Shown: positions 3,512 through 19,177, counted from the stretch's first letter. The stretch is DNA of 64,000 bases from an uncultured Candidatus Saccharibacteria bacterium (GCA_964469335.1 CAYXYK010000003.1:196674-260673), one strand, 5' to 3'. Notes: generated by a model from the sequence alone, not told the origin. Numbers and translations are program-made.

Positions 3512-3614
3512 TATGACCGAAACCTTGAGAGACAGAAAACATTTTATATGAAAAACCTCATGACAACCTCATTACAAACCCATAGAACTAGCTCGTACGA
3601 CTAACAACAAACCC

Positions 3615-4988: not shown

Positions 4989-5002
4989 AGCAAAAAATAC
5001 AA

Positions 5003-5040
5003 AAAGACTGCCGAACTCAAAGGCAGTCTTTTTGTATTTC
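5003..5040 (+). terminator. Rho-independent terminator after rpoD
   Basis: agactgcc-gaactcaaa-ggcagtct hairpin followed by ttttgtattt. Confidence 0.6.
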
Positions 5041-5186
5041 GTAACTTCTGAGCTTGTAGAGCAAAGCGTTCAAATTTTGCGACCTCCTAGGTTTTCCCTC
5101 GGAAAGCTCTTCACCGTACCACCTGTACGGCTCCTCGCTTTTCTCAGTCCAAACCGTCGGATCTCATCAAAATTATGAACGCTTGA

Positions 5187-5438
5187 TTATGGGTATAGAG
5201 GATAAACCTCGCCATGATTAGGAGTTGCTGGGTACTGCGGATTGCAACTGCGTACCCAATCCCATTCATGCGCATTCAAGACGGCATCACCCTCGCATCC
5301 CTCATAGGGGCACATTTCATATGCTTCGCCGGACATAACAATCATCCGGTATTTGCCCGCCTCATAAGTTCGTTCACAATGCATACACCAAAGAATAGTG
5401 CCCTCGGGAGACTTCCCGAAAATTTCTTCTCGATCCAT
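5187..5438 (-). CDS. Small Cys-rich hypothetical protein (putative zinc ribbon)
   Basis: 83 aa with CMHC...CPYEGCEG cysteine pairs; no recognised family. Confidence 0.4.
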   Translation of the reverse strand: MDREEIFGKSPEGTILWCMHCERTYEAGKYRMIVMSGEAYEMCPYEGCEGDAVLNAHEWDWVRSCNPQYPATPNHGEVYPLYP

Positions 5439-5734
5439 ATAATTTCAAAACTATTCAATAAAAACGTACAATTTTTGTGGGATATACTCCGGGATTTTTG
5501 CCTCAGTCGAGCCCCTATATTGCCTAGAATGATACGCTTCTTACTGCTCGGGAGCAAATGCACTCTTTTTGTGAGGCAATTTAGCCCCCAGAAGCCTATT
5601 CCAGAGCCTGTTTTTAATGGCTTCCACACTGCATTTTGAGCTGTATGGTACACACCTGTGCGGGTATCGTCGTTCCTAGGCCACCCCAGAATACAAAGGG
5701 CATATCATAGGCCGATTTCTGCTAAAATATACTG

Positions 5735-6445
5735 ATGGATGAAACTTCGAATACCGTGACGAATACGGACAGCGCACCGCCGAGTGCCGAAGAGACCGTA
5801 GTCGAGCCAGTCGCAGCGGAAGTTGTGTCCACCGTCGCGCCTGCCTCAACAGGCGAGCCAGAGGTTGCCGATGTGCCCGTCATACAGGTTGAGGCTCCTG
5901 CGCCCGAAGCATCGCAACCGGAAGCGAGTGGAAACGAAAATACGCTCGATAGTGAGCCTGACCCAGAAACCCCTGCACCTACTCCAACGCCTCAAGTCGT
6001 CGAACGCATCGTCGAAAAATTTGTCGAAAAAGAAGTGGTGAAAGAAGTGCCAGTCGAAAAGATCGTCGAACGCATCGTCGAGAAACCTGTTGAAGTGATC
6101 AAAGAAATTCCCGTCGAGAAAATAGTCTACAAAGAAGCCGAGCCGACGGATGCATCGCTGCGTGCCTATCTCGCGAGCTTCTTAAGGAGAGTTGGGCCGA
6201 AGGGGAGAGCCGCTCAGCACGAGCGTGCTCAAAAGAAGCGCGAAGCTGTACTCAAACTCTTTGACACCCATGAGCATGTCACTCACAAACTCGTCATGGA
6301 GACACTCAAGTTCACTGATCGAGATGCATCCCGCATCCTCGCCACCCTGCGCAGCGAAGGCAAGATAACGCTCCATGAACCCTCAGCTAGCCACCACGGC
6401 GGCAAAGGTACCTTCTATTCGAGATCGACTTCCGCAACGAAGTGA
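5735..6445 (+). CDS. Acidic tandem-repeat protein, hypothetical
   Basis: N-terminal acidic, proline-rich region, then repeated VEKIVERIVEKPVEV-like units, then a basic C-terminal domain. No family recognised. Confidence 0.5.
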   Translation: MDETSNTVTNTDSAPPSAEETVVEPVAAEVVSTVAPASTGEPEVADVPVIQVEAPAPEASQPEASGNENTLDSEPDPETPAPTPTPQVVERIVEKFVEKEVVKEVPVEKIVERIVEKPVEVIKEIPVEKIVYKEAEPTDASLRAYLASFLRRVGPKGRAAQHERAQKKREAVLKLFDTHEHVTHKLVMETLKFTDRDASRILATLRSEGKITLHEPSASHHGGKGTFYSRSTSATK

Positions 6446-6610
6446 GGAAGGCGAGTCGTGACTGGCATCTCCGGTGGGCGATACTTCTACGAAAAAGCTA
6501 AACCTGGTGTTGGGGGTCTTCCCACAACTTGGCTTATACAAAATCGCCGTCGGATACGAAGTAGGGAAACACACCCTCAAAGGGAACCCCACCCCCTAGG
6601 CCACCCCAGA

Positions 6611-6640
6611 GCCCCAGAACGTACTTCTGGGGCGCTTTTG
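6611..6640 (+). terminator. Putative intrinsic terminator
   Basis: ccccagaa-cgtac-ttctgggg hairpin followed by cgcttttg, about 165 nt downstream of the 5735..6445 gene. Confidence 0.45.
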
Positions 6641-6836
6641 CAAATACCGCTCAAGGGCACTCCTCGCTGCCGCCTCGCACTGCATCCCAAATTCCGCGTC
6701 CCACGATAAGTAGGTGAGACACGGTTCTATTGTCTAAGCAATTCGTTTGCTTTAGTTAAATGAAATGCTAGGATAATCCGTATTACAGCCAGTGGCCCCT
6801 ATGTAGCTCTCTGACCGTCCAGATTATTTAGATTTT

Positions 6837-9035
6837 ATGCATCCCGCAAAAAAAATACTAAAATCATTCAAAATTGATGCACGTACAGTCATTAATCTTG
6901 GTCGTGATAGCATAAAAAATCCGACAACTGCGATTTTGGAACTAGTAAAAAATAGTTATGATGCAGACGCGACTATTGTTGAAGTAGTAATTGGAGAAAA
7001 TGATATTCGCATAGCAGACAATGGAGTGGGAATGACTGAGTCGCATCTTGAAAAAAATTGGCTACGTATTGGTTATTCTGAAAAGCGCAAAGAAAAAATA
7101 AGTAAAAAGTTCCGTCGTAAAACTGGGGAAAAAGGTATAGGGCGGCTCTCCACTGATAGGCTGGGCGAGTATCTTTCTCTTCGCACTAAGGCAGAAAATT
7201 CAAGCCCGCTTCAGATGAGCGTAGATTGGGAAAGTTTTAATGTTGAAGGAAAAGAGCTATCACAGATTCCAGTTGAAATCATTGAAATCTCCTCACTCGA
7301 AATCCCCGCATCTAAGAAAGGAGCGGGAACGGAAATCAATATTTCCCGCCTTCGACAAAAATGGAATAAAGCAGATATTGAGCAACTCTACAGTGAACTA
7401 ACTGGGCTCCTTTCGCCATTTGCTGGGACATCTGATTTTCAGATTTTTTTCCACAGTTATTTAGTAGAAGAATTAAATGGACCAGTTAGATCTTCATATT
7501 ACGAAGCAGCTGAGGTAGCAATAAAGGCAAAATTCTCCGGAAAACAAAATAAGATTGAGTATCAAATTATAGATATAAACGCAAGGAAAAAAAGTAAACC
7601 TAAGAAACAACACATAACATGGGATCAACTTTCCCAAAGATTAAATGCATCTGATATCGGCTTCAATCCTGATTTGGTATGCGGCCCAATTTCCCTAGAG
7701 ATTCTTTATTTTGGTAGAACCAAAAGTAATCCTTTGCTGGAAGAAAAGGGATTTACTCTTGCGGGGTTACGTCGTTTTCTTGATAAAAATCAGGGGATTA
7801 AAATATACAGAGACGGCATAAGTGTTAAGCCTTATGGTTACAACAATGAACCAGCTGGAGACTGGTTAGGGCTTGCGCACAGAAAAGAGCGTGACCCCGC
7901 TGGACTCCTGAGACCCTCATATAAGGTATCTTCATATCAGCTTGTTGGAGCTGTCTCAATGAGTAGAGACTTAAACCCACAATTGAGAGATGGAGCTTCT
8001 AGAGAGGGTTTTGTTGAAAATGAAGCCTTTAATGATTTACGTGCTCTTACTTTATCTTGTGTCACCTTGCTTGAAAAATATAGACACGAGAAGGCGGTAA
8101 AAGAAAAAAAGCTCTCGAAGTCTAAAAAAGGCCTATTGGAAGATGTGGAAGGGTATAAAGATGACCTTGAGAGTTTTCAGAAAAAACTTGAAGAATTAAA
8201 GAGTAGGCTAGAGAATGACAAAACAAAAGACAGTAAAGAATCTGTTGCTGAACTAGCAGAGGTTATTCAGCAAACAGAAGCGACAAAAAAAAGGGTTGAA
8301 GAACTTCTCGATAATAATCGAGTTCTGAGCGGTCTTGCCACTGTTGGTATCGCTGCTGCTGTCTTTGGCCACGAAACTCAAACTGCCGTCTCGCTTTTTA
8401 AATCCAGTGTTTCTGCGGCACAATCCTTCCTTACTTTGCGATCTGGTCCGAATACAAAAAAAGCACTGGAGCAGCTGACTGCCTCCTTGACATATGCTAA
8501 ACAAGTCTCTTCTTGGGGTGCTTTTGCTATGGCTCGTGTACGGAAAGATAAAAGAACCCGACAAAAAATAAATATTAAGAATACCATTGAAGCAGTACTC
8601 GATGAGGTTGAGGATGCTTTTGGGGTGATAAAAATTGAAATAATTAGAGAACTAAAAGAGGTCAATGCAAAAGCCTTTGTTATGGACATAGAATCAATTG
8701 TTTTGAACCTTATGACCAATGCATATACTGCGTGTACCCATTCCGCACACTCCCGGAAAGTGAGAGTAGAACTTACTCAAAAGAATGAAGGAGGGGTTGA
8801 GGGCTTTGAAATAGTAGTAGCGGATAGTGGCCCAGGGGTTGATAAAGCAATTTCGGATATGATTTGGGAGCCGCTTTATACCACAAAAAAGGACAAAACA
8901 GGCAGAGAAGATGGGACAGGCTTGGGGCTTACAATAGTCAAGACAACAGTAGAAGAATTAGGCGGAATTCGTGACGTTAACAAGGATCCTAAACTCAAAG
9001 GAGCTCGATTTCGCGTCTGGCTCCCCACTAATTAG
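6837..9035 (+). CDS. Cytoplasmic GHKL ATPase / histidine-kinase-like protein: N-terminal MORC-type HATPase_c_3-like module plus C-terminal HisKA-like and HATPase_c modules
   Basis: N-terminus ILELVKNSYDADATIVEVVIGENDIRIADNGVGMT...GEKGIGRLS (Bergerat-fold N and G1 boxes). Coiled coil around aa 420-500. Candidate H-box FGHETQTAV. C-terminus NLMTNAYTA...VVADSGPGVD...GTGLGLTIVKTTVEELGG (N, G1, G2 boxes). No transmembrane segment. Confidence 0.75.
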   Translation: MHPAKKILKSFKIDARTVINLGRDSIKNPTTAILELVKNSYDADATIVEVVIGENDIRIADNGVGMTESHLEKNWLRIGYSEKRKEKISKKFRRKTGEKGIGRLSTDRLGEYLSLRTKAENSSPLQMSVDWESFNVEGKELSQIPVEIIEISSLEIPASKKGAGTEINISRLRQKWNKADIEQLYSELTGLLSPFAGTSDFQIFFHSYLVEELNGPVRSSYYEAAEVAIKAKFSGKQNKIEYQIIDINARKKSKPKKQHITWDQLSQRLNASDIGFNPDLVCGPISLEILYFGRTKSNPLLEEKGFTLAGLRRFLDKNQGIKIYRDGISVKPYGYNNEPAGDWLGLAHRKERDPAGLLRPSYKVSSYQLVGAVSMSRDLNPQLRDGASREGFVENEAFNDLRALTLSCVTLLEKYRHEKAVKEKKLSKSKKGLLEDVEGYKDDLESFQKKLEELKSRLENDKTKDSKESVAELAEVIQQTEATKKRVEELLDNNRVLSGLATVGIAAAVFGHETQTAVSLFKSSVSAAQSFLTLRSGPNTKKALEQLTASLTYAKQVSSWGAFAMARVRKDKRTRQKINIKNTIEAVLDEVEDAFGVIKIEIIRELKEVNAKAFVMDIESIVLNLMTNAYTACTHSAHSRKVRVELTQKNEGGVEGFEIVVADSGPGVDKAISDMIWEPLYTTKKDKTGREDGTGLGLTIVKTTVEELGGIRDVNKDPKLKGARFRVWLPTN

Positions 9036-9039
9036 TGCT

Positions 9040-9738
9040 ATGGAAAAGATGAAGTTGGCAATAGTTGACGATCGAAAGGAAACAAGGAATGTCGTTGTTG
9101 ATGTTATTGCTAATGCACTCGACAATCTTGAGATGACTGGCAAATGGTCTGTTTTGGGGGTACCACCCCTGTCTACATTAAAGGAGTACCCAGAGTGGAT
9201 AATTAGGGAAAATGTAGGTATTTTAATCGTGGATGAAAGATTGGGAGAAGTTCCAAATGCCTCAGGCAAGATTGCGGATTACAAAGGGAGTGATTTGGTG
9301 GCATTGCTTCGAACACAGTATAAAGAAATGCCTATTTATGGTGTTACTGCGTATCATGCTGACGACTCCCTTCAAGAGCATTTCTCTCTTTTCGACGATG
9401 TTGTTGAAAGAAGTGACTTCGCAGCAAAAACAGTCCAGTATATTGGCAGATTCCTGAGAACATATCAAAATTTTTTTGAAGAAAACGAGAAAGAGCTCAC
9501 TGAGCTTTCAAAGATTTCAAAAAAAATTGCCATTGGTACTGCAAGCAAGTCTGAAAAAAATAGGGCAGAGGCGATACAGAGAAATCTCGAGATACCAGTT
9601 AGTACCATTTCTATTGCAAATAGAAAAGAATGGCTTGACGACTATGAAAAAATATTAAATATATTTACTGAAACGCAAAATAAAGCGAACAAAATTTTGG
9701 ACAAAAATAAAACAAAAATAAAAGATAAGAAAAAATGA
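9040..9738 (+). CDS. Receiver (REC) domain protein with a lysine-rich helical C-terminus
   Basis: KLAIVDDRKE (acidic pocket), ILIVDERLGE (candidate phospho-Asp) and YGVTAYH (conserved Thr). Start set at ATG 9040, 4 nt after the upstream stop; the ORF track gives 8971 as an alternative start. Confidence 0.55.
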   Translation: MEKMKLAIVDDRKETRNVVVDVIANALDNLEMTGKWSVLGVPPLSTLKEYPEWIIRENVGILIVDERLGEVPNASGKIADYKGSDLVALLRTQYKEMPIYGVTAYHADDSLQEHFSLFDDVVERSDFAAKTVQYIGRFLRTYQNFFEENEKELTELSKISKKIAIGTASKSEKNRAEAIQRNLEIPVSTISIANRKEWLDDYEKILNIFTETQNKANKILDKNKTKIKDKKK

Positions 9739-10385
9739 AATGGTCATTAATTCACAAAAAAGCAAACCCAGCACTTGAGAAGCATGGTTATCGCGATCAT
9801 CGAGTGAGGGAATTTTTAAGACAAGAAGGACTTTTGCGTTGTGCATATTGTGCTGTTCATGAGAATGCTGTCGGGGGAGTCCAGGCATTTCATATTGACC
9901 ACTACAAACCCAAGAAAAAGTTTCCTGCTTTAACGAATTCACTCTCCAATCTCTTTTATGTTTGCCCCATCTGCAATCGATTTAAGTCAGATGATTGGCC
10001 TGCAAATCCTCGCCCCACGTTTAGTAATAGCTCATATCCAAATCCGTCGAAGGTAGATTACAGCAAGCTGTTTGACGTTAGTTCTAGTGACTATGTGGTT
10101 AGTGGCCTGTTTGTGGCCTCAAAATATATAGTAGAAAAGCTATACCTTAATCGACCTCAGTTGATTTTGGAGCGGCGCTACTATTACCTAAACCAAAAAT
10201 TTGAATATCTGAGTTCGAATTATTTACCTATAATTAATGGTTTGAGTTCCATTGGAAATAAAGAGGCAATTGAATGTATAGTAAAACTTGCTGAAATCAG
10301 TGGTAAACTCAATGAACTACATTCTGCCTTAAAAACAATACCGTTATATGAAGTAGCAGATGTGACAAAGAGGAAAAAGAAATGA
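9735..10385 (+). CDS. HNH family endonuclease (candidate restriction endonuclease)
   Basis: CAYCAVHE ... HIDHYKPKKK ... YVCPICNRFK: a Cys4 zinc-finger HNH motif. The start overlaps the upstream stop (ATGA). Confidence 0.7.
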   Translation: MKWSLIHKKANPALEKHGYRDHRVREFLRQEGLLRCAYCAVHENAVGGVQAFHIDHYKPKKKFPALTNSLSNLFYVCPICNRFKSDDWPANPRPTFSNSSYPNPSKVDYSKLFDVSSSDYVVSGLFVASKYIVEKLYLNRPQLILERRYYYLNQKFEYLSSNYLPIINGLSSIGNKEAIECIVKLAEISGKLNELHSALKTIPLYEVADVTKRKKK

Positions 10386-12019
10386 ACTTAAAAAAGGAAA
10401 CAGGCTCATATTACACACCACATATCCTATCGGATTTCATGGTTTTTCACCTGTTTTCAGAATATAAATTTCCTAAAAATATAAATATTTTGGAGCCTAG
10501 CGCCGGAGACGGAGTATTCTTTGATTCGCTTTTTAATAATCAAGTTTTTAAAAATAAGTTTAAACTTCCCAAAAAAATAATCATTGATGCTGTTGAAATT
10601 GAAAAGGTAGCGATGCGTCATCTGGAAGTGAAAACGAGAGATTATATTTCAAAATCAAGTGAAATAAACTACACCCAGGAGGATTATTTGAAATACCAGC
10701 ATAAGAATAAAAAGAAGTTTGATTTGGTTTTGGGGAACCCACCTTACATAAAAAGTAGTCTTTTAAATAAAACTCAGATTGAGTTTTGTGAACAAATCCA
10801 TAAAACTGCCGGGCTTGATAATAAGAAAATTAAGAATATATGGACAAGTTTTTTGATTGCTGGCGTAGACTCTCTGAATAAAGACGGGGTACTCTGCTTC
10901 GTACTTCCTGCTGAGTTGTTGCAGGTCATATATGCTAAAGAACTAAGAAACTATCTACGAGATAATTTTCAGAGAATTGAGATTTTTACCTTCAACGAAC
11001 TTATTTTCCCAGATATTGATCAAGATGTTATCGTTCTTATTTGCGCAAAAAAGCAAAACGCGGGTGTTTCTTTCTATCACGTAGAAAAGCTTGATGATCT
11101 AAAAAAGCCAACATATGTTAAGGAAAATGATAACATCCATCGCCAAACTCTAGATAAATGGACTAATTACATTTTATTAGACAATGAACTTAAGTTTTTA
11201 GATTCTCTAAAAACTCGTTTCTCTCCAATCAAAGACTATTGTCGAGCGGAAGTTGGTATTGTTACTGCAGCAAATGATTATTTCATCGTTAATAAAGAAA
11301 CTATTGAGAAATATCACTTGCAAAATGTTGCAAAGCCAATTTTGCAGAAAAGTTCTTTGATGCCAGCAACAATTAACTTTACAAAACTTGACCAGAAGAG
11401 CATTTCTAAAAAAAACAAGCCTTCATACTTTCTTAGATTTGAAGATGTTAATAAAAAAGTATTTTCAAAAGAAATACAAGAGTATCTAAAGATTGGCGAA
11501 GGTCGAAAAATAAACGAACGATATAAATGCAAGCTTCGAAGCAATTGGTACCACGTACCCTCAGTTTGGATTTCTGAAGGGTTCTTTACGAAGCGCTCAA
11601 ATTTATTTCCTAGGATGGCAGTAAATGATGCTAAGTCATACTCTACTGATGCATTTTATAGAATTAAAATGAAGGAACAAAACAATGTTAAAGATCTTGT
11701 ATTTTCATTTTACAATACTTTGACGTTAATTTTTGCTGAGCTAGAGGGACGTTACTATGGTGGGGGAGTGCTCGAGCTAACTCCTAATGAGTATAAGAAT
11801 TTATCTATACCATATTGTAAAAATATAAAGGATTCTACATTTGCAAAGTTAGATAAAATGTTGAGATCTAAGACAGATATAAAAGAAGTTCTAAACTATA
11901 CAGACAAAATAATTTTAAAAGAGAATTACAAAATGTCTGATCAGGAAATTTCCAGGTTGTCTAAGATTTATTCAAAACTTGTTACTCGGAGATTAAAAAA
12001 TAGAAAACTTAGTTTTTAG
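10382..12019 (+). CDS. N6-adenine DNA methyltransferase, gamma class (Eco57I/TaqI-like), candidate Type II modification enzyme
   Basis: Motif I ILEPSAGDGVFF precedes motif IV LVLGNPPYIKS. Long C-terminal region is a likely target-recognition domain. Start overlaps the HNH stop (ATGA). Confidence 0.8.
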   Translation: MNLKKETGSYYTPHILSDFMVFHLFSEYKFPKNINILEPSAGDGVFFDSLFNNQVFKNKFKLPKKIIIDAVEIEKVAMRHLEVKTRDYISKSSEINYTQEDYLKYQHKNKKKFDLVLGNPPYIKSSLLNKTQIEFCEQIHKTAGLDNKKIKNIWTSFLIAGVDSLNKDGVLCFVLPAELLQVIYAKELRNYLRDNFQRIEIFTFNELIFPDIDQDVIVLICAKKQNAGVSFYHVEKLDDLKKPTYVKENDNIHRQTLDKWTNYILLDNELKFLDSLKTRFSPIKDYCRAEVGIVTAANDYFIVNKETIEKYHLQNVAKPILQKSSLMPATINFTKLDQKSISKKNKPSYFLRFEDVNKKVFSKEIQEYLKIGEGRKINERYKCKLRSNWYHVPSVWISEGFFTKRSNLFPRMAVNDAKSYSTDAFYRIKMKEQNNVKDLVFSFYNTLTLIFAELEGRYYGGGVLELTPNEYKNLSIPYCKNIKDSTFAKLDKMLRSKTDIKEVLNYTDKIILKENYKMSDQEISRLSKIYSKLVTRRLKNRKLSF

Positions 12020-12050
12020 TTAGATTCATGATAGATATCAAGTTATCAAA

Positions 12051-12620
12051 ATGAACATTGTTATATTGGGATGGGGCTCTCTATTGTGGGATAAAAATAT
12101 AAATTTTGATGAAACACATAAGGAATGGCTATTCGACGGCCCAAGTTTACCGTTAGAGTTTTCTCGTGTGTCAGAATCGAGAGGAGGAGCGCTAACGCTC
12201 GTAATTGATACTCAAAATGGAACCAAATGCCAAGTTGCGTATTCTTTGAGTATCAGGAAGACACTACGTGATGCCATAAATGACTTGACCAAAAGAGAGG
12301 GAACATCAACAAAACGAATAGGTTTTGTTGATGTGCTGTCTGGTAGTATTTCAGATGACGAGATTTCTCTTGGAATTAAATCTTGGGCGAAGGAACATGA
12401 TATTGAAGCAGTAGTATGGACAAATCTGCAGAGTAATTTTTGGGATAAAGTTGGAGAGAAATTTAGCGTCGAATCTGCGGCCACTTATCTTACTTCACTC
12501 GCAGAAGAGTCAAAAATAGAAGCTCTGAAATATATTAAATCGGCACCAGAATTTGTCCAAACACCACTGAGGAAGGAGTTCGAGATAAGGTTGGCCACAA
12601 ATGAGTTTGGAGAAAAGTGA
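12051..12620 (+). CDS. Hypothetical protein
   Basis: 189-aa ORF in the AT-rich island between the two R-M modules; no family recognised. Confidence 0.45.
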   Translation: MNIVILGWGSLLWDKNINFDETHKEWLFDGPSLPLEFSRVSESRGGALTLVIDTQNGTKCQVAYSLSIRKTLRDAINDLTKREGTSTKRIGFVDVLSGSISDDEISLGIKSWAKEHDIEAVVWTNLQSNFWDKVGEKFSVESAATYLTSLAEESKIEALKYIKSAPEFVQTPLRKEFEIRLATNEFGEK

Positions 12621-12659
12621 TGGGTTTGCAATCCCTAAATAGGGGAGTAGTCTGGAATT

Positions 12660-13067
12660 ATGACTGAGAAAAAAACGGACACATACGAGACGTTAGAATT
12701 CTGGCTAGGTGATGACTGGAAGAAAATTTCTGATGAACACAAGAGGATTTTAGCAGATAAGCTTGATTCACTTACAGATACAAATTTCGAAACGACAAAG
12801 GGTTTGTTTGAAAGAATACGCGACCGTCGTGAGATTCAGGGAGTGCTCATTTTGGGCGTAGTGCTCGGTATCCTAGGAAACTTAGTTGCTAATTATCTTG
12901 ATAGATATTTCCTCCGTTTTGGCTTTGCGTATTCGCTTGTGGTATCAGTAGGTTTTATTGTTGTGTATATTATTTTGAACCGAGCATTTGATAAAGGAAT
13001 CTCATCAATGGTGAGGAGCAATCCAACCCTACGTGCGATGATCGTCGAGAAAACCGAAAAGAAATAA
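12660..13067 (+). CDS. Hypothetical small membrane protein (2 predicted transmembrane helices)
   Basis: Hydrophobic segments VLILGVVLGILGNLVANYL and FAYSLVVSVGFIVVYIIL. Confidence 0.4.
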   Translation: MTEKKTDTYETLEFWLGDDWKKISDEHKRILADKLDSLTDTNFETTKGLFERIRDRREIQGVLILGVVLGILGNLVANYLDRYFLRFGFAYSLVVSVGFIVVYIILNRAFDKGISSMVRSNPTLRAMIVEKTEKK

Positions 13068-13199
13068 CAAAGGAAGTTCGGCACCAATTAATTGCAAAAA
13101 ATTTTTGGTAGATTTGTGCGAATTTCCCTCTAAATTCAACACATTCACTCAATCCCGAACAGACTAGCAACAAAGCCATCTTTGCCGTATTCTTATTGA

Positions 13200-15581
13200 A
13201 TGTCGCAGGAGGCATATTCTCGTGTTGTGATCGACCGAAAACTTCGTGAATCTGGTTGGGATATTGAGGATTCCCGTCAGGTTGTTTTTGAAGACCACGG
13301 AAACGCTGGTAGAGCTGATTATGTACTTAAGGATGGCTCTGGGAGGGCTATTGCACTCATTGAGGCTAAGAAACCAGAGATAGACCCCTACAGTGCAAAG
13401 AAACAGGCTTCTGATTACATAGAACTCCAGTATCCTCATGTGCGGTTTATTTATCTAGCTAACGACAAGCTAATTTACTTCTGGGATTTGGACGGAGGCG
13501 GAGACGCTCAAGTTGTCCCAGCGTTCTACTCCCAAGACGATTTGGTTCGTCGCCAGAGTGTTCGATCTCAAAATCTCGCTAAGAAACTAACAGAAGAGAC
13601 AATTCAAAAAGATTACTTCACCGATGTTGCTGACAGCGCAATCCTCCGTCCATACCAGCTCTCGGCATGGGAAACTATTGCTGATGGATATGATGCTGGG
13701 AAGCGTGCTTTCTTGCTGGAGATGGCTACGGGAACAGGAAAGACAATGCTCGCGTCTCTCATCATTTCTCGTTTCTTGCGCACAAACAACGCACAAAACG
13801 TTCTCTTTCTTGTAGACCGTAAATCACTCGCCATTCAAACCAAGAACACATTCGAGCGACTTCTTCGGGGAGTGTCGGCTGTCGGAACATACTGGGGCTC
13901 AAACAGGAAGAACCTCACGGGGTCAAACGTAGTGGTTGCCACAATTCAGTCTCTCATGCTCCACGGTGCACGTGATTTCTCGTCGGGATACTTCGACCTC
14001 ATCATCCACGACGAAGCACACCGAAGCATCTACTCCCCAGAGGCTCGTTCAGCAGTTGACCACTTCGTGGGAGTAACCAAGATTGGTCTGACTGCTACTC
14101 CTCGTGATTTCTTGAAGAATATTGACCTTGAACAGCTCAATGCAAAAGATCCTCGTAAACTAGAGCGCAGAGTACAGCGTGATACATATTCATATTTTGG
14201 TTGTGAACAAGGGGTGGCAACGTATCGCTACACGATACAAGACGGTGTGAGTGAGAAGTTTCTTGTTCCGCCAAAGTATCACAAGATGAAAACCTCGATT
14301 ACTCAACAGGCATTGTCTGACGAAGGTATAACGACTCTCGCTGACGTTGATCTCGAAGAGGGTGAAAGCATCAAAGTGAAAGACCTTGAAAAGAAGGTGC
14401 ATTTCCCTGAGCGGAATCGTCGCATGATGCAGGAATTTCTTGAACATGCAGTGCGCACACCAGACGGAGAGATCGGAAAGACACTTATCTTTGCGGTATC
14501 GCAAAATCACGCACTCGCACTAGAGAAAATACTGAATGAGCTGAAGCCCGAGTACGGAGGAAAGTTTGCAATGACCATCACTTCGCGAGTGCAGGGGGCT
14601 CATGATATTGCTAAGGATTTCTCGAAAGAGACAAGTAAGCTCCCACGAGTGGGAGTGACGGTAGAAATGCTCGCTACGGGCTTTGATTGCCCTGAGATAC
14701 TCAACATTGTTCTGGCTCGTCCAATATTTGATCCTGTGAGCTACCAGCAGATTAAAGGGCGCGGTACACGTCTGTGCCCAGAGATAAACAAAAAAGAATT
14801 TGTGGTGTTCGACTTCTGTGGTGTCGTTGAATATTTTGACGAGAAGTACGACTGGGAAGCACCAATCGTCCTGCCTCCCGTTGGTGGTGGAAATACAAAT
14901 GAGGGCGGAGCGGAGAGTGGAGGTGGAACAACATGCATAGGAATCGATGGAGAAGGAGGTGAGCCAGAAGAACGCATTTCACAAACACCAGATGTGGTGC
15001 TTTCTCGCGACATCATTACACTTCCTGAAGGTGATACGGTAGATAAAAACATGTATCGCGACGAGTGGACAAAGGCGGTGCAAGATTTCATGAGTAAGAG
15101 AGGCGAGTTGGTCGCATCCGCTCTTGAAGACGAAGATAAGGTAGAGGAGCTCATCGCAGAAATCAACGCCACACTACTCAATCAGCCCAAGCTTTACTTC
15201 AACGAGGAAAATCTCCAAATATCACACCGTATCGTCGCTGGCGTGCGAGAGTTCTTCCTTTCTGCTGTAGGAAAGCAATCGCTCCCAACCCGCGATGAAC
15301 AGCTCACTGGGTTCAAGCAGGCATTGGTCAACAAGTTTGCCCAATCAGATAAGCCAGAAGCCACCTTCAAGAGAGCCGTTATGGGGGAGTTCATTGCAGA
15401 TCAAGCTATTACAAACGACCACTTCCGAAAGTCTGTTATCGAGAAGCCAACACTCGACTTTTTGCGCTGGGACGAGTTTGAGCAAGCTTACTCGGTTACA
15501 GAGTGGCTCAATGTTTTCACAAAAGATGAGCTCACTGAATTGGTTTCGGATATTTCAAATGCACGCATTCTGAAGATTTAA
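13200..15581 (+). CDS. hsdR: Type I-like restriction enzyme R subunit (N-terminal PD-(D/E)xK nuclease plus SF2 DEAH helicase)
   Basis: N-terminal HsdR_N-like segment VVIDRKLRESGWDI...ADYVLKD...IALIEAKK. Helicase motif I LEMATGTGKT, motif II IIHDEAHRS, motif VI QIKGRGTR. At 793 aa it is short for a canonical HsdR. Confidence 0.75.
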   Translation: MSQEAYSRVVIDRKLRESGWDIEDSRQVVFEDHGNAGRADYVLKDGSGRAIALIEAKKPEIDPYSAKKQASDYIELQYPHVRFIYLANDKLIYFWDLDGGGDAQVVPAFYSQDDLVRRQSVRSQNLAKKLTEETIQKDYFTDVADSAILRPYQLSAWETIADGYDAGKRAFLLEMATGTGKTMLASLIISRFLRTNNAQNVLFLVDRKSLAIQTKNTFERLLRGVSAVGTYWGSNRKNLTGSNVVVATIQSLMLHGARDFSSGYFDLIIHDEAHRSIYSPEARSAVDHFVGVTKIGLTATPRDFLKNIDLEQLNAKDPRKLERRVQRDTYSYFGCEQGVATYRYTIQDGVSEKFLVPPKYHKMKTSITQQALSDEGITTLADVDLEEGESIKVKDLEKKVHFPERNRRMMQEFLEHAVRTPDGEIGKTLIFAVSQNHALALEKILNELKPEYGGKFAMTITSRVQGAHDIAKDFSKETSKLPRVGVTVEMLATGFDCPEILNIVLARPIFDPVSYQQIKGRGTRLCPEINKKEFVVFDFCGVVEYFDEKYDWEAPIVLPPVGGGNTNEGGAESGGGTTCIGIDGEGGEPEERISQTPDVVLSRDIITLPEGDTVDKNMYRDEWTKAVQDFMSKRGELVASALEDEDKVEELIAEINATLLNQPKLYFNEENLQISHRIVAGVREFFLSAVGKQSLPTRDEQLTGFKQALVNKFAQSDKPEATFKRAVMGEFIADQAITNDHFRKSVIEKPTLDFLRWDEFEQAYSVTEWLNVFTKDELTELVSDISNARILKI

Positions 15582-15582
15582 T

Positions 15583-17493
15583 ATGGACACCATCTCAACA
15601 TACAAAAGCAGAATAGACGGGCTGATGAATATTCTCTTTGGTGCAGGGGTTTCCAACCCTCAAACCATCATCGAGCAAATTAACTACTTGCTCTTTCTGC
15701 GCGCTCTCTCAGTCAAAGACGACGAGGCAGAGCTTCTTGGTATCGCCGATGAATCAGGCAAGATCTTCACGGGCAAGCTATCGAAGTACAAATGGTCAAA
15801 TCTCCTCGCACTGAACGCCGAGGATCTGTTCAAAATACTTGAGGAGTCTTATGGCGCGATTCAAAAAGAATCTGCGAATGCAACAGTAAAGCTCTTGTTC
15901 CGCAATGCCCATGTAAAGATTTTCGACAAGCCTACGCTCCGCAGGGTGCTTCACGAGATCGAGGAGTTTTCGAAGGAACTCGACACCATTGCCCACGAAG
16001 GCAACAAGGACGTGTTTGGGGATATGTATGAGTTCCTTCTCTCGAAGCTTTCCTCTGCGGGAACGAACGGGCAATTTCGCACCCCACGACACATAATCGA
16101 CTTCATGATCCGAGTACTCGACCCAAAGATTGGCGAGACGATACTTGATCCCGCTTGTGGCACGGCAGGTTTTCTTGTTGCCGCCTACCGCTATATTGCG
16201 GGCGAGTATACGAGCGACAAGATGAAGAAGGCAGGCAGTCCACGTGCAATGGACAAGCTCTCGTCCGAGGAAAAGAATTTTCTCTATAATCACATGTTCA
16301 CGGGCTTCGACAGTGACGAGGACATGATCAAGTTCGGAATGATGAACTTGCATTTGCACGGACTTACGAAATCTCATCTTGTTCGTCAAAATACGCTGAC
16401 TGATACAACTGGGTACAAGGCGAAGTTTGATGTCATTCTCGCCAACCCTCCTTTCAGTGGAAAGCTCGACGAGGAAAGCGTATCGGAAGACATTCGCATG
16501 GGGACAAAAGCGACTGAGCTTCTTTTCTTACGTTTTATGATAGACCACCTATCAAACAGAGGGAAAATGGCGGTGGTAGTGCCAGAAGGTGTGCTCTCAA
16601 GTTCTTCAAGGGCAAACACGAGGGTTCGTGAAATGTTGCTAGAAAATGGTCTATGGTGTGTCGTTTCACTTCCCAAAGGTATTTTTAATCCATATGCAGG
16701 TGTTAAAACCAACATTATATTTCTTGATAAGTTATTTGCCAGTAAGTCGAAAAATATTCTGTTTGTAACACTAGCAAATGATGGCTTTGAGCTTACTGCA
16801 CAGAGACGAGCTACGCAGAAAAATGATTTACCTGAAATATTAGAATTGTTATCAAGATGGAAGATGGACGAAAACACAGAAAGTACTCTCATAAAATCGG
16901 TCGAAAAATCAAAAATTATCGACAATGCCGACCACACTCTCTTGAAAGAGCAGTATGAAATTAACAGTAGGCACACAAAGGCAAAATACCCAATGATAAA
17001 GTTGGGAGAGCTTTGTGAAATTAAGACTGGAAAGAAGGATGTAAATGAAGGAAACCCAGATGGGGAATATCCTTTTTTTACTTGCGCCAAAGAGCCAACT
17101 CGAAGCGATAGTTATTCTTTCGACACAGAAGCCCTGCTTATTGCTGGCAACGGTGATGTTGGTGCTGTAAAGTATTATCTCGGGAAGTTTGAGGCATATC
17201 AAAGAACATATGTTTTGGTGAATTTTGAAAAAAGTGTTTTACCAATGTTCATTTATCACTATCTTGACGCGACGCTTAAACCCATTGTATCTGCACAAAA
17301 ATTAGGTAATACGATGCCATATATAAAAATGGGAATGCTATCAAATTTTGAGATATCTCTTCCGCCCCTAGAAATCCAGCAACAAATTGTCTCTGAAATT
17401 GAGAGTCATCAGCTTGCGGTAGATGAAGCCTACGAAGAAGCCGAAAGACAAAAGAGGAAAATCAAAGAGAGGATCGACAAGATTTGGGAGTAA
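15583..17493 (+). CDS. hsdM: Type I restriction-modification methyltransferase HsdM with a fused C-terminal single target-recognition domain (HsdS-like)
   Basis: N-terminal HsdM_N-like region. SAM motif ILDPACGTAGFL. Catalytic ILANPPFSG. C-terminal ~180 aa resemble an HsdS TRD plus conserved helix (LGELCEIKTGKKD ... LPPLEIQQQIVSEIE). Confidence 0.8.
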   Translation: MDTISTYKSRIDGLMNILFGAGVSNPQTIIEQINYLLFLRALSVKDDEAELLGIADESGKIFTGKLSKYKWSNLLALNAEDLFKILEESYGAIQKESANATVKLLFRNAHVKIFDKPTLRRVLHEIEEFSKELDTIAHEGNKDVFGDMYEFLLSKLSSAGTNGQFRTPRHIIDFMIRVLDPKIGETILDPACGTAGFLVAAYRYIAGEYTSDKMKKAGSPRAMDKLSSEEKNFLYNHMFTGFDSDEDMIKFGMMNLHLHGLTKSHLVRQNTLTDTTGYKAKFDVILANPPFSGKLDEESVSEDIRMGTKATELLFLRFMIDHLSNRGKMAVVVPEGVLSSSSRANTRVREMLLENGLWCVVSLPKGIFNPYAGVKTNIIFLDKLFASKSKNILFVTLANDGFELTAQRRATQKNDLPEILELLSRWKMDENTESTLIKSVEKSKIIDNADHTLLKEQYEINSRHTKAKYPMIKLGELCEIKTGKKDVNEGNPDGEYPFFTCAKEPTRSDSYSFDTEALLIAGNGDVGAVKYYLGKFEAYQRTYVLVNFEKSVLPMFIYHYLDATLKPIVSAQKLGNTMPYIKMGMLSNFEISLPPLEIQQQIVSEIESHQLAVDEAYEEAERQKRKIKERIDKIWE

Positions 17494-17715
17494 ACAGGAA
17501 GTGGGTAGCGGAATAGGAAGAGAAATGGGGGCAGGCATCAATTAATTCGAAAATGCGTTGTCTAATAATGCGGAAAATTTTTTGGTAGCGACCTAGATTT
17601 TTACGACCGTAGGAAGATAAAAATGGAAGTATTCTTTGTGGTGAATATGAAGATGGATCAAACAGGGGATACAACGACTGAGCCCCCGTTTTCCTCCTCT
17701 TTCCTTTTCTTGTCT

Positions 17716-17748
17716 ATACTCTAATTCGCGCGAATGTGCGAATAAGGA
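17716..17748. promoter_or_regulatory. Palindromic element ctaattcgcgcgaatgtgcgaat (copy 1), candidate ArsR-family operator
   Basis: Imperfect inverted repeat taattcgc / gcgaatta about 60 nt upstream of the ArsR-like gene; near-identical copy at 18087-18112. Confidence 0.4.
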
Positions 17749-17807
17749 AACGGCAGAGTGACATTGTGAAGACTGGACGAGAAAATTCCTTGTGTTAGTT
17801 TTCGGGA

Positions 17808-18092
17808 ATGAAGCAAGAAACCAAGGCAGACATCAAGACTCTCGAGAAACAGATGAAGGCGCTCGCCAATGCCCGCCGCCTTGCGATCCTCAGGTATCTC
17901 AAGAAGAATAAGGAAGCTACGGTGGGAGATATTGCCGAGGAGATCAAGCTATCTTTCAAGTCGACATCCAAGCACCTCGCCATTCTCTACGCAGCAGGAG
18001 TCCTCGAGAAAGACCAGCGCAACATCGCGGTTTTCTATCGCCTCACGGTAGCTCCCCACACCATCGCAAAACACATTCTCTCTATGCTCTAA
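17808..18092 (+). CDS. ArsR/SmtB-family transcriptional regulator
   Basis: wHTH RLAILRYLKKNKEATVGDIAEEIKLSFKSTSKHLAILYAAGVL. Confidence 0.7.
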   Translation: MKQETKADIKTLEKQMKALANARRLAILRYLKKNKEATVGDIAEEIKLSFKSTSKHLAILYAAGVLEKDQRNIAVFYRLTVAPHTIAKHILSML

Positions 18093-18115
18093 TTCGCGCG
18101 AATGTGCGAATTAGC
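18085..18115. promoter_or_regulatory. Palindromic element ctaattcgcgcgaatgtgcgaattag (copy 2); may act as operator and/or terminator hairpin
   Basis: Stem ctaattcgc / gcgaattag overlaps the stop of the ArsR-like gene and precedes the 18160 gene. Confidence 0.4.
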
Positions 18116-18159
18116 TCTCGCAAGTTCACAATCCCGTTTCGGCAGGGTACGCTGAGAGT

Positions 18160-18474
18160 ATGAATAAGAATATTGTCGGTATCGCCGTGTTCGCAGTCGG
18201 ATTGCTGCTTATCATTGGGTACTTTGCACTTCAGTTTCAAAAAGTGAATATCACTGCTGCATACATTGCTCCGCCGGGTGCGTGGGAGAGCGGAACATAC
18301 TTCAACGCAGATCATGGAGTCTGCGAGTTCCGATTGGGAACACAGCTCTCTGCATATCATGACTGCACATTCGTGAGTTATGTCATCTACGGAACTCCGA
18401 AGCTCATTGTCATTCCGTATATACTGTTGTTCGCAATGTGGTTTGTGTATCAAAAGAGAAAAAAGAAAACCTAG
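18160..18474 (+). CDS. Small membrane protein, hypothetical
   Basis: 104 aa with two hydrophobic helices, downstream of the ArsR-like gene and the palindrome. Confidence 0.45.
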   Translation: MNKNIVGIAVFAVGLLLIIGYFALQFQKVNITAAYIAPPGAWESGTYFNADHGVCEFRLGTQLSAYHDCTFVSYVIYGTPKLIVIPYILLFAMWFVYQKRKKKT

Positions 18475-18537
18475 TCAGCCACTAGCGAGATCCGCACCGC
18501 TGCAGGATAGTTCGATATTTCTTGGTACAATAAGGGT

Positions 18538-18723
18538 ATGGATAAGAAGAAGCGGAGTTGGATCATGGAGGTATTCATGTCAGGAAGTATGGTCATGGGT
18601 GCTTTTATGAACGTGATGCACAATGTCATTTCTGGACGTGAGACCACCGCAATCACCCGCATGCATGATGAAAAGAAAGCGCACACCGAACACAACAATG
18701 ATGCACCCAAAGCCGAACCCTAA
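18538..18723 (+). CDS. Small hypothetical protein (61 aa)
   Basis: ORF only; weak support. Confidence 0.25.
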   Translation: MDKKKRSWIMEVFMSGSMVMGAFMNVMHNVISGRETTAITRMHDEKKAHTEHNNDAPKAEP

Positions 18724-18756
18724 GCATAGCTCGGACGAATAGCGCTCATCCCCTCA

Positions 18757-18790
18757 CGTAAATCATTCCAACATTCTGCAGAATGTTGGA
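18757..18790. promoter_or_regulatory. 30-nt perfect palindrome cattccaacattctgcagaatgttggaatg, candidate operator
   Basis: Perfect inverted repeat immediately upstream of or overlapping the start of the second ArsR-like gene; second copy at 19160-19200. Confidence 0.45.
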
Positions 18791-19177
18791 ATGTTCGTAA
18801 AGATTGCAAAACTCATTGGCGGGAGTAGTTTTTTGGGTATGCTATACCACAAACCGAAAAAAACAGGGACGAATGTCGGGGTGAGAGTTGGAGTAGAAAG
18901 GGGAAGCGGTCCAAAGACCGTCAAGCAGCTCGAGCGCTACTTCAAGGGAGCAGCGAATCACAACCGCATCGCCATTCTCCTTGTAGTCGCAAAGGAGCCG
19001 GGGATCACTGTTGATCAGCTCACCGAGCGACTCGACGGCAACCTTAAGACTATTTCACAACACACGCATTCACTAGTCCGTGCAGGACTCTTGAATAAAT
19101 CGTACAAGGGACGCATGGTCGCCCACGAACTTTCTCCCTACGGCCGCCGCTTCGTCTCCTTCATCAAATCATTCTAA
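18791..19177 (+). CDS. ArsR/SmtB-family transcriptional regulator (start codon uncertain)
   Basis: KQLERYFKGAANHNRIAILLVVAKEPGITVDQLTERLDGNLKTISQHTHSLVRAGLL. Confidence 0.65.
   Translation: MFVKIAKLIGGSSFLGMLYHKPKKTGTNVGVRVGVERGSGPKTVKQLERYFKGAANHNRIAILLVVAKEPGITVDQLTERLDGNLKTISQHTHSLVRAGLLNKSYKGRMVAHELSPYGRRFVSFIKSF

What the first reader, a model, noticed from the sequence alone, without database searches (positions are those of the whole stretch)
13200..17493. HsdR-like nuclease/helicase followed by an HsdM with a fused single TRD, 1 nt apart in different frames: a split or frameshifted Type ISP-like enzyme?
Seen: the 793-aa R protein has an N-terminal PD-(D/E)xK HsdR_N region and SF2 motifs (GTGKT, DEAH, QxxGRxxR), but it is short for a canonical HsdR. 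Its TAA stop (15579-15581) is followed by the ATG (15583) of a 636-aa protein with HsdM motifs (DPACGTAGF, NPPF) and a C-terminal half-HsdS-like target-recognition domain. No separate hsdS gene is present. Gene order R then M-S, with a single TRD and a combined length of about 1430 aa, resembles single-chain Type ISP enzymes (Mrr-like nuclease, helicase, MTase, TRD; established for LlaGI/LlaBIII). Inference: this is either a naturally split Type ISP-like system, an M-S fusion Type I variant, or a gene inactivated by a +1 frameshift.
Basis: partly seen in the sequence, partly recalled or inferred. Interest (0 to 1): 0.6.

Follow-up and report, generated by a model that had tools for sequence, protein, structure and literature searches.

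The report
Type I restriction system, fused methylase-specificity subunit
This is an intact two-gene Type I restriction-modification system (a cutting/motor subunit plus a methylase with its own DNA-reading domain fused on), a layout already known and common in bacteria and E. coli plasmids, not a broken or split single-chain enzyme.

Summary
A 793-aa HsdR-type nuclease/helicase gene (13200-15581) ends in TAA. One base later the ATG of a 636-aa HsdM gene begins (15583-17493). That protein carries one HsdS-type target-recognition domain (TRD) and one long C-terminal helix. No other TRD is encoded in the 64 kb.

The headline reading (split or frameshifted Type ISP) is not supported. In 71 of 78 related genome loci an R gene precedes a fused M-S gene as a separate ORF, and all three frame offsets occur. 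The two closest relatives share the identical 'aagatt TAA t ATG ga' junction despite saturated synonymous divergence (dN/dS 0.02-0.05). None of the 150 best cluster representatives exceeds 1053 aa. Neither protein matches any Type ISP chain in the PDB, while HsdR, HsdM and HsdS chains match strongly.

The R length is the family norm (about 780-805 aa, Type IB-like). The best structural match of the M-S model is the natural M-S½ 'intact MTase' of Vibrio vulnificus (7EEW). Engineered M-½S fusions restrict with HsdR.

The most likely mechanism is an (M-S½)2 dimer that reads a symmetric bipartite site and recruits R. This is a new member of a known kind and of low interest.

The parts
13200..15581 (+). 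hsdR: 793-aa restriction/translocase subunit (Type IB-like HsdR)
   Evidence: ORF confirmed. Pfam ResIII 5e-35, HSDR_N and Helicase_C. NCBIfam EcoAI/FtnUII R at 1.6e-76 but below the curated cut-off. PADLOC REase_I at 6.6e-60. PDB 3h1t (V. vulnificus HsdR) at 2.2e-37, and 2.9e-63 with the family profile. dN/dS is 0.02-0.03 against the closest relatives.
13200..13619 (+). N-terminal PD-(D/E)xK nuclease domain of R (E4, D40, E55-A-K57, Q69xxxY73)
   Evidence: Motif positions are. All of these residues are invariant in the 25-sequence family alignment A2. They correspond to the Glu26/Asp77/Glu92/Lys94 and QxxxY residues described for HsdR_Vv in PMC2777439.
13632..14879 (+). SF2 motor of R: motif I GTGKT 13731-13745, DEAH 14010-14021, TATP 14091-14102, QxxGRxxR 14748-14771
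   Evidence: the motif residues are invariant in A2.
14880..15578 (+). C-terminal region of R (aa 561-793). No Pfam family, but conserved to the last residues across the family. Presumed helical/M-binding region (inference).
   Evidence: No Pfam hit at E<=1. Invariant or near-invariant columns F667, L672, F685, L695, P696, Q701, F754, L755, F760 and F773.
15579..15585 (+). Gene junction TAA-T-ATG: R stop, 1-nt spacer, M-S start. Likely translational coupling.
   Evidence: Sequence. The identical 'aagatt TAA t ATG ga' is found in L083 and L084 although dS exceeds 1.5. Other relatives have spacers of -29 to +37 nt in all three frame offsets.
15583..17493 (+). hsdM-S½: 636-aa fusion of HsdM methyltransferase with one HsdS-type TRD and one conserved-region helix
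   Evidence: AF2 model with pLDDT 80.8. Top Foldseek match is 7eew_A.
15604..15906 (+). HsdM N-terminal helical domain (aa 8-108)
   Evidence: Pfam HsdM_N 2.4e-06; helices in the model.
16003..16956 (+). gamma-class N6-adenine MTase catalytic domain (aa 141-458), with motif I DPACGTAGF 16147-16173 and motif IV NPPF 16444-16455
   Evidence: Pfam N6_Mtase 2.2e-56. Motif positions; motif residues invariant in A1. PADLOC MTase_I 3e-111.
16978..17358 (+). Single target-recognition domain (aa 466-592)
   Evidence: Pfam Methylase_S 1.5e-20. PADLOC Specificity_I 1.2e-25. HsdS chains 1yf2, 5ybb_D and 3okg match. Beta-rich globular domain in the model. The TRD plus helix aligns closely with the first TRD of P0002, a two-TRD protein (75% identity over the whole protein) and with P0003, a one-TRD protein.
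17368..17487 (+). C-terminal conserved-region helix (aa 596-635) after the LPPLEIQ motif (17359-17379). Presumed dimerisation helix.
   Evidence: Single 40-residue helix H596-635 in the model. One-TRD relatives share a conserved charged helix ending ...IW(S/E). The dimer role is inferred from 7EEW/(M1S1/2)2 and from engineered half-S fusions.

Best explanation
This is a functional two-gene Type I restriction-modification system of a Type IB-like lineage. The specificity function is not a separate HsdS subunit. It is one TRD plus one conserved-region helix fused to the C-terminus of HsdM.

Shown here: both genes are intact, carry every catalytic motif, and are under strong purifying selection. 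The gene pair, and even the exact TAA-T-ATG junction, are conserved in relatives.

Inferred mechanism:
1. Two M-S½ chains pair through their C-terminal helices into an (M1S½)2 dimer, equivalent to a classical M2S1 methyltransferase with two identical TRDs.
2. The dimer therefore reads a rotationally symmetric bipartite site and N6-methylates one adenine in each half-site.
3. On unmethylated sites it recruits HsdR. HsdR uses its SF2 motor to reel in flanking DNA and its N-terminal D...ExK nuclease to cut at a distance.
4. The 1-nt TAA-T-ATG junction couples translation of M-S to that of R from one transcript.

The system sits in a low-GC defence island next to rpoD in a Patescibacteria (CPR) genome.
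For: - Domains and motifs are present in both proteins and invariant in the family alignments.
- The nearest solved structures are classical Type I parts: HsdR 3h1t; HsdM 5ybb, 2okc and EcoKI; HsdS 1yf2.
- The AF2 model shows MTase, one TRD and one 40-residue helix.
- The top Foldseek hit is 7eew_A, 'intact MTase from Vibrio vulnificus YJ016 + Ocr'. PMC12429846 describes it as an HsdM-S1/2 fusion in a Type I operon, two copies of which recapitulate M2S1.
- An engineered HsdM-half-HsdS fusion dimerised, methylated and, with HsdR, restricted phage (PMC6158711). An EcoKI M-S fusion was also functional (PMC3510504).
- R followed by fused M-S is a conserved pair: 71 of 78 genome loci across many phyla, and E. 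coli IncF plasmids.
- dN/dS is 0.02-0.05 for R and the M domain.
- The junction is identical in L083 and L084.
- 53 of the 120 closest M-S homologues are of one-TRD length, and they share their own conserved terminal helix.
- There is no other TRD in the window.
- The region has GC 0.31-0.49 against about 0.52 in the flanks. rpoD relatives are named Patescibacteria, Lloydbacteria or Pacebacteria.
Against: - No activity, methylation motif or oligomeric state was measured. Dimerisation and a palindromic target are inferred by analogy.
- Similarity to the V. vulnificus M-S½ is distant: 19% identity in the Foldseek alignment with rmsd 23 Å over the whole chain, meaning the domains match but their relative orientation does not.
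- R scores below the NCBIfam EcoAI/FtnUII cut-off (258 against 550 bits), so subtype IB membership is not established.
- The charge asymmetry of the terminal helix (-7/+3) is not a family-wide feature, so it does not support antiparallel pairing.
- No promoter or terminator could be assigned.
- An hsdS elsewhere in the genome cannot be excluded from a 64-kb window.
Confidence: 0.85

Rival explanations
1. Naturally split Type ISP-like enzyme. One R and one M-S½ form a 1:1 'half Type I' unit that recognises an asymmetric half-site as a monomer, translocates in one direction, and cuts when two head-to-head units collide, as LlaGI/LlaBIII do.
For: The domain order nuclease-motor-MTase-single TRD and the combined length of about 1430 aa resemble Type ISP (domain order of LlaGI in PMC4872093). 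PMC3510504 itself notes that Type ISP amounts to HsdR fused to an M-S fusion with a single TRD. Oligomeric state was not tested here.
Against: - Profile searches of the PDB with both families return no chain named as a Type ISP enzyme at E<=1, while HsdR/HsdM/HsdS chains score 1e-23 to 1e-63.
- The nuclease is HSDR_N-type with D40...E55-A-K57 and QxxxY, not Mrr-type PD-QxK (PMC3874165).
- The M part keeps the HsdM N-terminal domain rather than a coupler.
- No R-M-S single-chain relative appears among the listed R or M-S homologues or among the 150 best 50%-cluster representatives, whose maximum length is 1053 aa.
- The same TRD occurs in two-TRD relatives, so it works in a classical paired-TRD context.
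- The natural and engineered M-S½ precedents dimerise.
Confidence: 0.07
2. A single ancestral R-M-S gene inactivated or split in this genome by a +1 frameshift or an assembly indel at 15579-15583.
For: Only the appearance: the stop and the start are 1 nt apart in different frames.
Against: - R's C-terminus and M's N-terminus (Met1 is conserved in at least 90% of sequences) are both conserved family termini.
- The identical TAA-T-ATG junction occurs in two independent metagenomic relatives with dS above 1.5.
- 33 further loci have separate genes with short spacers in all three frame offsets, including offset 0, where a stop codon still separates them.
- No relative is a fused chain.
- dN/dS of 0.02-0.05 on both sides shows that both ORFs are maintained.
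Confidence: 0.01
3. A system that is no longer a complete restriction enzyme. For example, M-S½ needs a separate HsdS or a second TRD partner encoded elsewhere, or it acts only as a solitary (epigenetic) methyltransferase while R is silent.
For: Only 64 kb of the genome was visible. Most relatives (60 of 78 loci) carry two TRDs, so one TRD could be viewed as a loss.
Against: - One-TRD forms make up 53 of the 120 closest homologues and have their own conserved terminal helix.
- There is no TRD2 remnant downstream.
- R is under strong purifying selection with all motifs intact.
- Single-TRD M-S plus R pairs recur in unrelated hosts, including E. coli plasmids.
- Engineered half-S fusions are sufficient for restriction.
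Confidence: 0.07

Closest known systems
Vibrio vulnificus YJ016 Type I system: HsdR_Vv (PDB 3H1T) and the 'intact/minimal MTase' M1S1/2 (PDB 7EEW; Seo et al. 2022, as cited in PMC12429846)
   Same: R is a Type IB-like HsdR with an N-terminal D...ExK plus QxxxY nuclease and an SF2 motor. 3h1t is the best PDB sequence match. The methyltransferase is one chain of about 636-638 aa comprising an M domain, one TRD and one CR helix. 7eew_A is the best fold match. The published assembly is (M1S1/2)2, which mimics M2S1.
   Different: The relationship is distant (M-S phmmer E 3.3e-28; 19% identity in the Foldseek alignment). The window belongs to a separate, very large clade found mostly in Patescibacteria and other uncultured phyla, in which two-TRD fusions predominate. 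Whether 3H1T and 7EEW come from the same operon was not verified here.
Engineered fusions: S. aureus CC398-1 'M½Sfus' plus HsdR (Bower et al. 2018, PMC6158711) and EcoKI MSFusion (Roberts et al. 2012, PMC3510504)
   Same: The polypeptide design is the same: HsdM fused in frame to a half (or whole) HsdS, working with a separate HsdR. The half-S fusion dimerised, methylated and restricted.
   Different: Those are laboratory constructs from Type IA/IC-like systems. Here the fusion is natural, ancient and under selection.
Type IB systems EcoAI/EcoEI
   Same: The R length class (about 800 aa) and the best NCBIfam model (EcoAI/FtnUII R, 1.6e-76) agree. Some R homologues carry the EcoEI_R_C domain PF08463.
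   Different: R is below the curated cut-off (258 against 550 bits). The window R shows no EcoEI_R_C hit. Type IB systems have separate HsdM and a long two-TRD HsdS (PMC3510504).
Type ISP enzymes LlaGI/LlaBIII
   Same: The domain order is the same (nuclease, SF2 motor, gamma-MTase, single TRD), and the total size is similar.
   Different: Type ISP is one polypeptide with an Mrr-type nuclease and a coupler domain, and it recognises an asymmetric site as a monomer. Here there are two polypeptides, an HsdR-type nuclease and an HsdM_N domain, with no detectable sequence similarity to any chain named as Type ISP in the PDB searches.
Half-HsdS systems (EcoDXXI truncations, EcoR124I-NT, NgoAV)
   Same: One TRD plus one helix dimerises to give a symmetric bipartite specificity (PMC3874165; PMC3510504).
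   Different: In those systems the half-S is a free subunit. Here it is covalently attached to M.

Membership tests
Type I restriction-modification system (HsdR/HsdM/HsdS) | R subunit with an N-terminal PD-(D/E)xK nuclease fused to an SF2 translocase | tested here: met
   HSDR_N plus ResIII/Helicase_C. E4, D40, E55xK57, QxxxY, GTGKT, DEAH and QxxGRxxR are present and invariant in A2. 3h1t HsdR matches at 2.9e-63.
Type I restriction-modification system (HsdR/HsdM/HsdS) | gamma-class N6-adenine MTase of HsdM type with the HsdM N-terminal domain | tested here: met
   N6_Mtase 2.2e-56 and HsdM_N 2.4e-06. PADLOC MTase_I 3e-111. HsdM chains 5ybb, 2okc and 2y7c match. The TIGR00497 hsdM score of 66.5 is below its cut-off of 242.75.
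Type I restriction-modification system (HsdR/HsdM/HsdS) | HsdS-type TRD followed by a conserved-region helix | tested here: met
   Methylase_S 1.5e-20. HsdS chains 1yf2, 5ybb_D and 3okg match. The model shows the TRD at 470-592 and a helix at 596-635.
Type I restriction-modification system (HsdR/HsdM/HsdS) | Separate S subunit carrying two TRDs (classical R2M2S1 composition) | tested here: not met
   One TRD, fused to M. There is no other TRD ORF in 64 kb and no remnant downstream. This is a known variant composition.
Type I restriction-modification system (HsdR/HsdM/HsdS) | ATP-dependent translocation and cleavage far from a bipartite site | not testable with these tools
   Needs biochemistry.
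Type IB subfamily (EcoAI/EcoEI) | R reaches the curated EcoAI/FtnUII equivalog score; complementation or hybridisation within the family | tested here: not met
   NF046051 scores 258.3 bits against a cut-off of 550. Complementation is not testable. It is best described as IB-like.
Natural HsdM-S½ fusion Type I systems (V. vulnificus 7EEW type) | One chain comprising an M domain, a single TRD and a single CR helix, encoded next to an hsdR | tested here: met
   7eew_A is the top fold hit at E 7.9e-27; hsdR lies immediately upstream.
Natural HsdM-S½ fusion Type I systems (V. vulnificus 7EEW type) | (M1S½)2 homodimer recognising a symmetric site | not testable with these tools
   Only a monomer could be modelled. 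The helix charge pattern was inconclusive.
Type ISP (LlaGI/LlaBIII) | All functions in a single polypeptide | tested here: not met
   There are two ORFs here and in all relatives examined. No relative in the top lists exceeds 1053 aa.
Type ISP (LlaGI/LlaBIII) | Mrr-family (PD-QxK) nuclease and a coupler domain; homology to LlaGI/LlaBIII | tested here: not met
   The nuclease is D40...E55-A-K57 with an HSDR_N match. No chain named as Type ISP appears at E<=1 in the profile searches of the PDB. Caveat: I did not independently confirm that 4XQK and 5FFJ are in the local copy.
Type ISP (LlaGI/LlaBIII) | Single TRD; asymmetric target; head-to-head site requirement | tested here: inconclusive
   A single TRD is present. 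Target symmetry and site requirements are not testable here.
Frameshifted pseudogene of a fused R-M-S gene | Relatives encode one ORF across the junction; relaxed selection on one side | tested here: not met
   No fused relatives were found. The junction is identical in L083 and L084, and dN/dS is 0.02-0.05 on both sides.

The most novel reading that the evidence does not exclude
The window's system belongs to a very large but poorly described Type I lineage: an IB-like R plus a fused M-S, with at least about 600 matching stretches among species-representative genomes. Most members fuse one M to a full two-TRD S with no second hsdM nearby. That leaves open how the second half-site gets its methyltransferase. 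The one-TRD members such as this one might then operate not as classical (M-S½)2 dimers but as 'half enzymes', with Type ISP-like one-sided recognition and translocation. That would make them a natural two-subunit intermediate between Type I and Type ISP.
Probability: 0.08. Interest if true: 0.45.

Novelty: new member of a known kind. Interest (0 to 1): 0.15.

Why it matters
Mostly as a correction. A stop and a start 1 nt apart in different frames is the ordinary, selected, translationally coupled junction of this operon, not damage. A '793-aa R plus M with one TRD' is a complete Type I system of a documented variant composition.

It has modest wider value:
- It is a natural counterpart of the engineered M-½S fusions used to argue how Type I, IIG and ISP enzymes evolved.
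- The clade is abundant in Patescibacteria and also sits on E. coli IncF plasmids, under uninformative annotations ('DEAD/DEAH box helicase', 'N-6 DNA methylase'). Annotation pipelines and defence-system finders may therefore undercount it as a Type I system lacking an S gene.

Tried and rejected
- An exact look-up of the window's own M-S protein in the contig index found nothing. The host was inferred from named rpoD relatives instead.
- The promoter/terminator consensus scan of 12000-18800 gave fewer or no more sites than shuffles and nothing positioned usefully.
- No tRNA or Rfam family marks island borders.
- dN/dS against the first homologous locus (L001) failed because dS was saturated. 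Closer relatives L083 and L084 were fetched and used instead.
- Idea tested: the terminal helix is a charge dipole that favours antiparallel self-pairing. This is true for the window (-7/+3) but weak on family average, and similar in two-TRD proteins. It was dropped as evidence.
- Idea tested: the single TRD is a recent truncation. tblastn hits that run past the stop codon proved to be noise containing two stops. One-TRD proteins have their own conserved tail. Rejected.
- Idea tested: a conserved third gene sits between R and M-S in the loci with 600-2100-nt gaps. The inserts are heterogeneous. Rejected.
- The R C-terminal region was scanned for EcoEI_R_C or any Pfam family at E<=1, with no hit.
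- Literature searches for 'hsdMS' returned only operon shorthand, not fusions.

Full report
**Observation.** The two ORFs are exactly as described. ORF 13200..15581 (+) encodes 793 aa and ends in TAA at 15579-15581. After the single base T15582, ORF 15583..17493 (+) encodes 636 aa in another frame.

The first protein has an HsdR N-terminal nuclease region and an SF2 motor. Pfam gives ResIII 5e-35, DEAD, SWI2_SNF2, HSDR_N 2.5e-05 and Helicase_C. PADLOC gives REase_I at 6.6e-60.

The second protein has HsdM_N, an N6_Mtase domain (aa 141-458, 2.2e-56) and one Methylase_S domain (aa 471-608, 1.5e-20). PADLOC gives MTase_I at 3e-111 and Specificity_I at 1.2e-25.

A TRD profile built from the family, and 30 individual S-tails, find no other TRD-like ORF in the 64-kb window.

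**Is R 'too short'?** No. The closest 120 homologues of R are almost all 770-808 aa. The best NCBIfam model is the EcoAI/FtnUII Type IB R subunit, 768 positions long, at 1.6e-76 but below its curated cut-off. The best solved relative is the Vibrio vulnificus HsdR fragment 3h1t: 2.2e-37 with the single sequence and 2.9e-63 with the family profile.

R carries E4, D40, E55-A-K57 and Q69xxxY73. All are invariant in the family alignment. They match the catalytic Glu/Asp/Glu/Lys and QxxxY residues described for HsdR_Vv and EcoAI in PMC2777439. The C-terminal 230 residues have no Pfam family but are conserved to the end of the protein.

**Is the junction a frameshift?** No.
- In 78 related loci from species-representative genomes of many phyla, 71 have an R homologue upstream on the same strand. 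In 33 of these the spacer is -29 to +37 nt. In the rest a variable extra gene lies between.
- The short junctions use all three relative frames. When the frames coincide, a stop codon still separates the genes.
- The two closest relatives are L083 (R 89.5% identical) and L084 (R 92%, M domain 83%). Both have the identical 'aagatt TAA t ATG ga' junction.
- Synonymous divergence from the window is saturated (dS about 1.5-2.8), and dN/dS is 0.02-0.05 for R and for the M domain.
- Met1 and the N-terminus of M-S, and the C-terminus of R, are conserved family termini.

The junction is therefore an ancestral, selected arrangement, most simply read as translational coupling.

**Is it a split Type ISP?** The evidence says no.
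- Profile searches of all PDB sequences return HsdR, HsdM and HsdS chains with E-values of 1e-23 to 1e-63. They return no chain named as a Type ISP enzyme even at E<=1.
- The nuclease is HsdR-type, not the Mrr-type PD-QxK of Type ISP. The M part begins with the HsdM N-terminal domain rather than a coupler. The Type ISP features are taken from PMC3874165 and PMC4872093.
- No relative is a single R-M-S chain. The listed R homologues are at most 808 aa and the listed M-S homologues at most 862 aa.
- In an exhaustive HMMER search of 1.84 billion cluster representatives, 1447 hits reach E<=1e-30. The best 150 are at most 1053 aa, and nearly all matches start within the first ~30 residues of the target, with no N-terminal R-sized extension.

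**What it is.** M-S fusions of this clade come in two length classes. Among the 120 closest homologues, 53 are shorter than 700 aa (one TRD) and 67 are 786 aa or longer (two TRDs). Among 78 genome loci, 9 are M only, 9 have one TRD and 60 have two TRDs.

The window's TRD and helix align closely with the first TRD of P0002, an 830-aa two-TRD protein (75% identity over the whole protein), and with the TRD of the 636-aa P0003 (sequence). Its M domain is closest to that of P0004, which carries different TRDs. This is the usual modular TRD shuffling of Type I systems.

One-TRD proteins end in their own conserved, charged helix (...IW[S/E]). It differs from both the central helix and the distal helix of the two-TRD forms. 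Nothing resembling a second TRD lies downstream of the stop. The single-TRD state is therefore an established form, not a recent truncation.

An AlphaFold2 model (mean pLDDT 80.8) shows the MTase, a globular TRD at 470-592 and a single 40-residue helix at 596-635.

**Comparison with what is known.** The best Foldseek match in the PDB is 7eew_A, 'intact MTase from Vibrio vulnificus YJ016 in complex with Ocr' (E 7.9e-27). It is a 638-aa chain whose C-terminal part aligns with the window's TRD and its LPxLExQ motif.

PMC12429846 summarises the primary paper (Seo et al. 2022) as follows: an S1/2 fused to HsdM in the Type I operon of V. vulnificus, two copies of which recapitulate the classical M2S1.

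Independently, Bower et al. engineered an HsdM-half-HsdS fusion that dimerised, methylated a symmetric site and restricted phage with HsdR (PMC6158711). Roberts et al. showed that an EcoKI M-S fusion works in vivo (PMC3510504). Morgan et al. noted a natural M2-S fusion (PMC5100572).

The same two-gene layout, with a single TRD, is also present on E. coli IncF conjugative plasmids. There the genes are annotated as 'DEAD/DEAH box helicase family protein' (849 aa, 35% identical to the window R) and 'N-6 DNA methylase' (677 aa, N6_Mtase plus one Methylase_S).

**Mechanism (inferred).** Two M-S½ chains pair through their terminal helices into (M1S½)2. The dimer binds a rotationally symmetric bipartite site and N6-methylates an adenine in each half; the NPPF motif indicates the gamma class. 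Unmethylated sites trigger recruitment of R, ATP-driven translocation and distant cleavage.

The steps shown here are the domain content, the motif integrity, the selection and the conserved pairing of the genes. The dimer, the target symmetry and the restriction activity are inferred from the precedents. A test of charge complementarity along the helix was inconclusive.

**Context.** The system lies in a low-GC stretch (about 6.5-18 kb, GC 0.31-0.49 against about 0.52 in the flanks), directly downstream of rpoD. The named relatives of that rpoD are Patescibacteria, Lloydbacteria and Pacebacteria. Many close R and M-S homologues are also from Patescibacteria. The island holds a second, uncharacterised four-gene RM-like cluster.

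**Verdict.** This is a new member of a known kind, and interest is low (0.15).

The residual novel reading is that one-TRD members act as ISP-like half enzymes within a large, under-described lineage whose two-TRD members pose a stoichiometry puzzle. It is not excluded, but it is unlikely (about 0.08).

Noticed in passing
window 6837-12019 (+): Four tightly packed, overlapping genes form a second RM-like or defence cluster in the same low-GC island. (1) A 732-aa protein has an N-terminal GHKL ATPase resembling the N-terminus of BbrUII/HgiDII-family restriction enzymes and a C-terminal histidine-kinase-type HATPase_c. (2) A 255-aa protein has no family. (3) A 216-aa HNH nuclease is PtuB-like. 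(4) A 545-aa protein is an Eco57I-type gamma N6-adenine MTase (PADLOC MTase_II 8e-152). The combination did not match a named system.
   Followed up: partly
window 12051-12620 and 12660-13067 (+): Two small ORFs lie between the two systems. The 189-aa ORF has only a weak ChaC-like hit (E 0.013). The 135-aa ORF has two hydrophobic, transmembrane-like segments. Neither matches a family, and neither is conserved next to R in relatives.
   Followed up: partly
related loci L003-L082 (e.g. L014 4173-4904, L043 2985-4988, L017 2697-3800): In about half of the related loci a variable gene sits between hsdR and the fused hsdM-S. By N-terminal sequence and my own recall (no family scan was run) they look like four-helix-bundle-type proteins, IS200-like transposases, Fic/KilA-like proteins, or an AAA ATPase with an RloB-like partner. 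They differ between loci, so there is no conserved third component.
   Followed up: partly
related loci L001, L003-L082: 60 of 78 related loci fuse HsdM to a full two-TRD HsdS, and no second hsdM lies within ±5 kb. This leaves one MTase per two TRDs. How the second half-site is methylated in these natural fusions is unclear. PMC3510504 met the same question with the EcoKI fusion.
   Followed up: no
L086 (E. coli IncFIA/IncFIC plasmid NZ_CP116482.1, locus 2388-9936): A homologous R (849 aa) plus one-TRD M-S (677 aa) pair on conjugative E. coli plasmids is followed by a 951-aa 'TrlF family AAA-like ATPase'. At least 90 plasmid records cover 80% or more of the query. The annotations give no hint that this is a Type I system.
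   Followed up: partly
window 16500-17499: GC drops from about 0.49 (16000-16499) to 0.38-0.39 across the last third of the M-S gene (end of the MTase domain, TRD and helix). This is consistent with the TRD module having a different history from the M domain, as the mosaic similarity to P0002, P0003 and P0004 also suggests.
   Followed up: partly
window 1-64000: No tRNA gene and no Rfam family at gathering threshold was found in the whole 64 kb. The host is inferred to be a Patescibacteria (CPR) bacterium from named rpoD relatives. An ArsR-type HTH ORF (17808-18092) and a second HTH ORF (18791-19177) follow the system.
   Followed up: no
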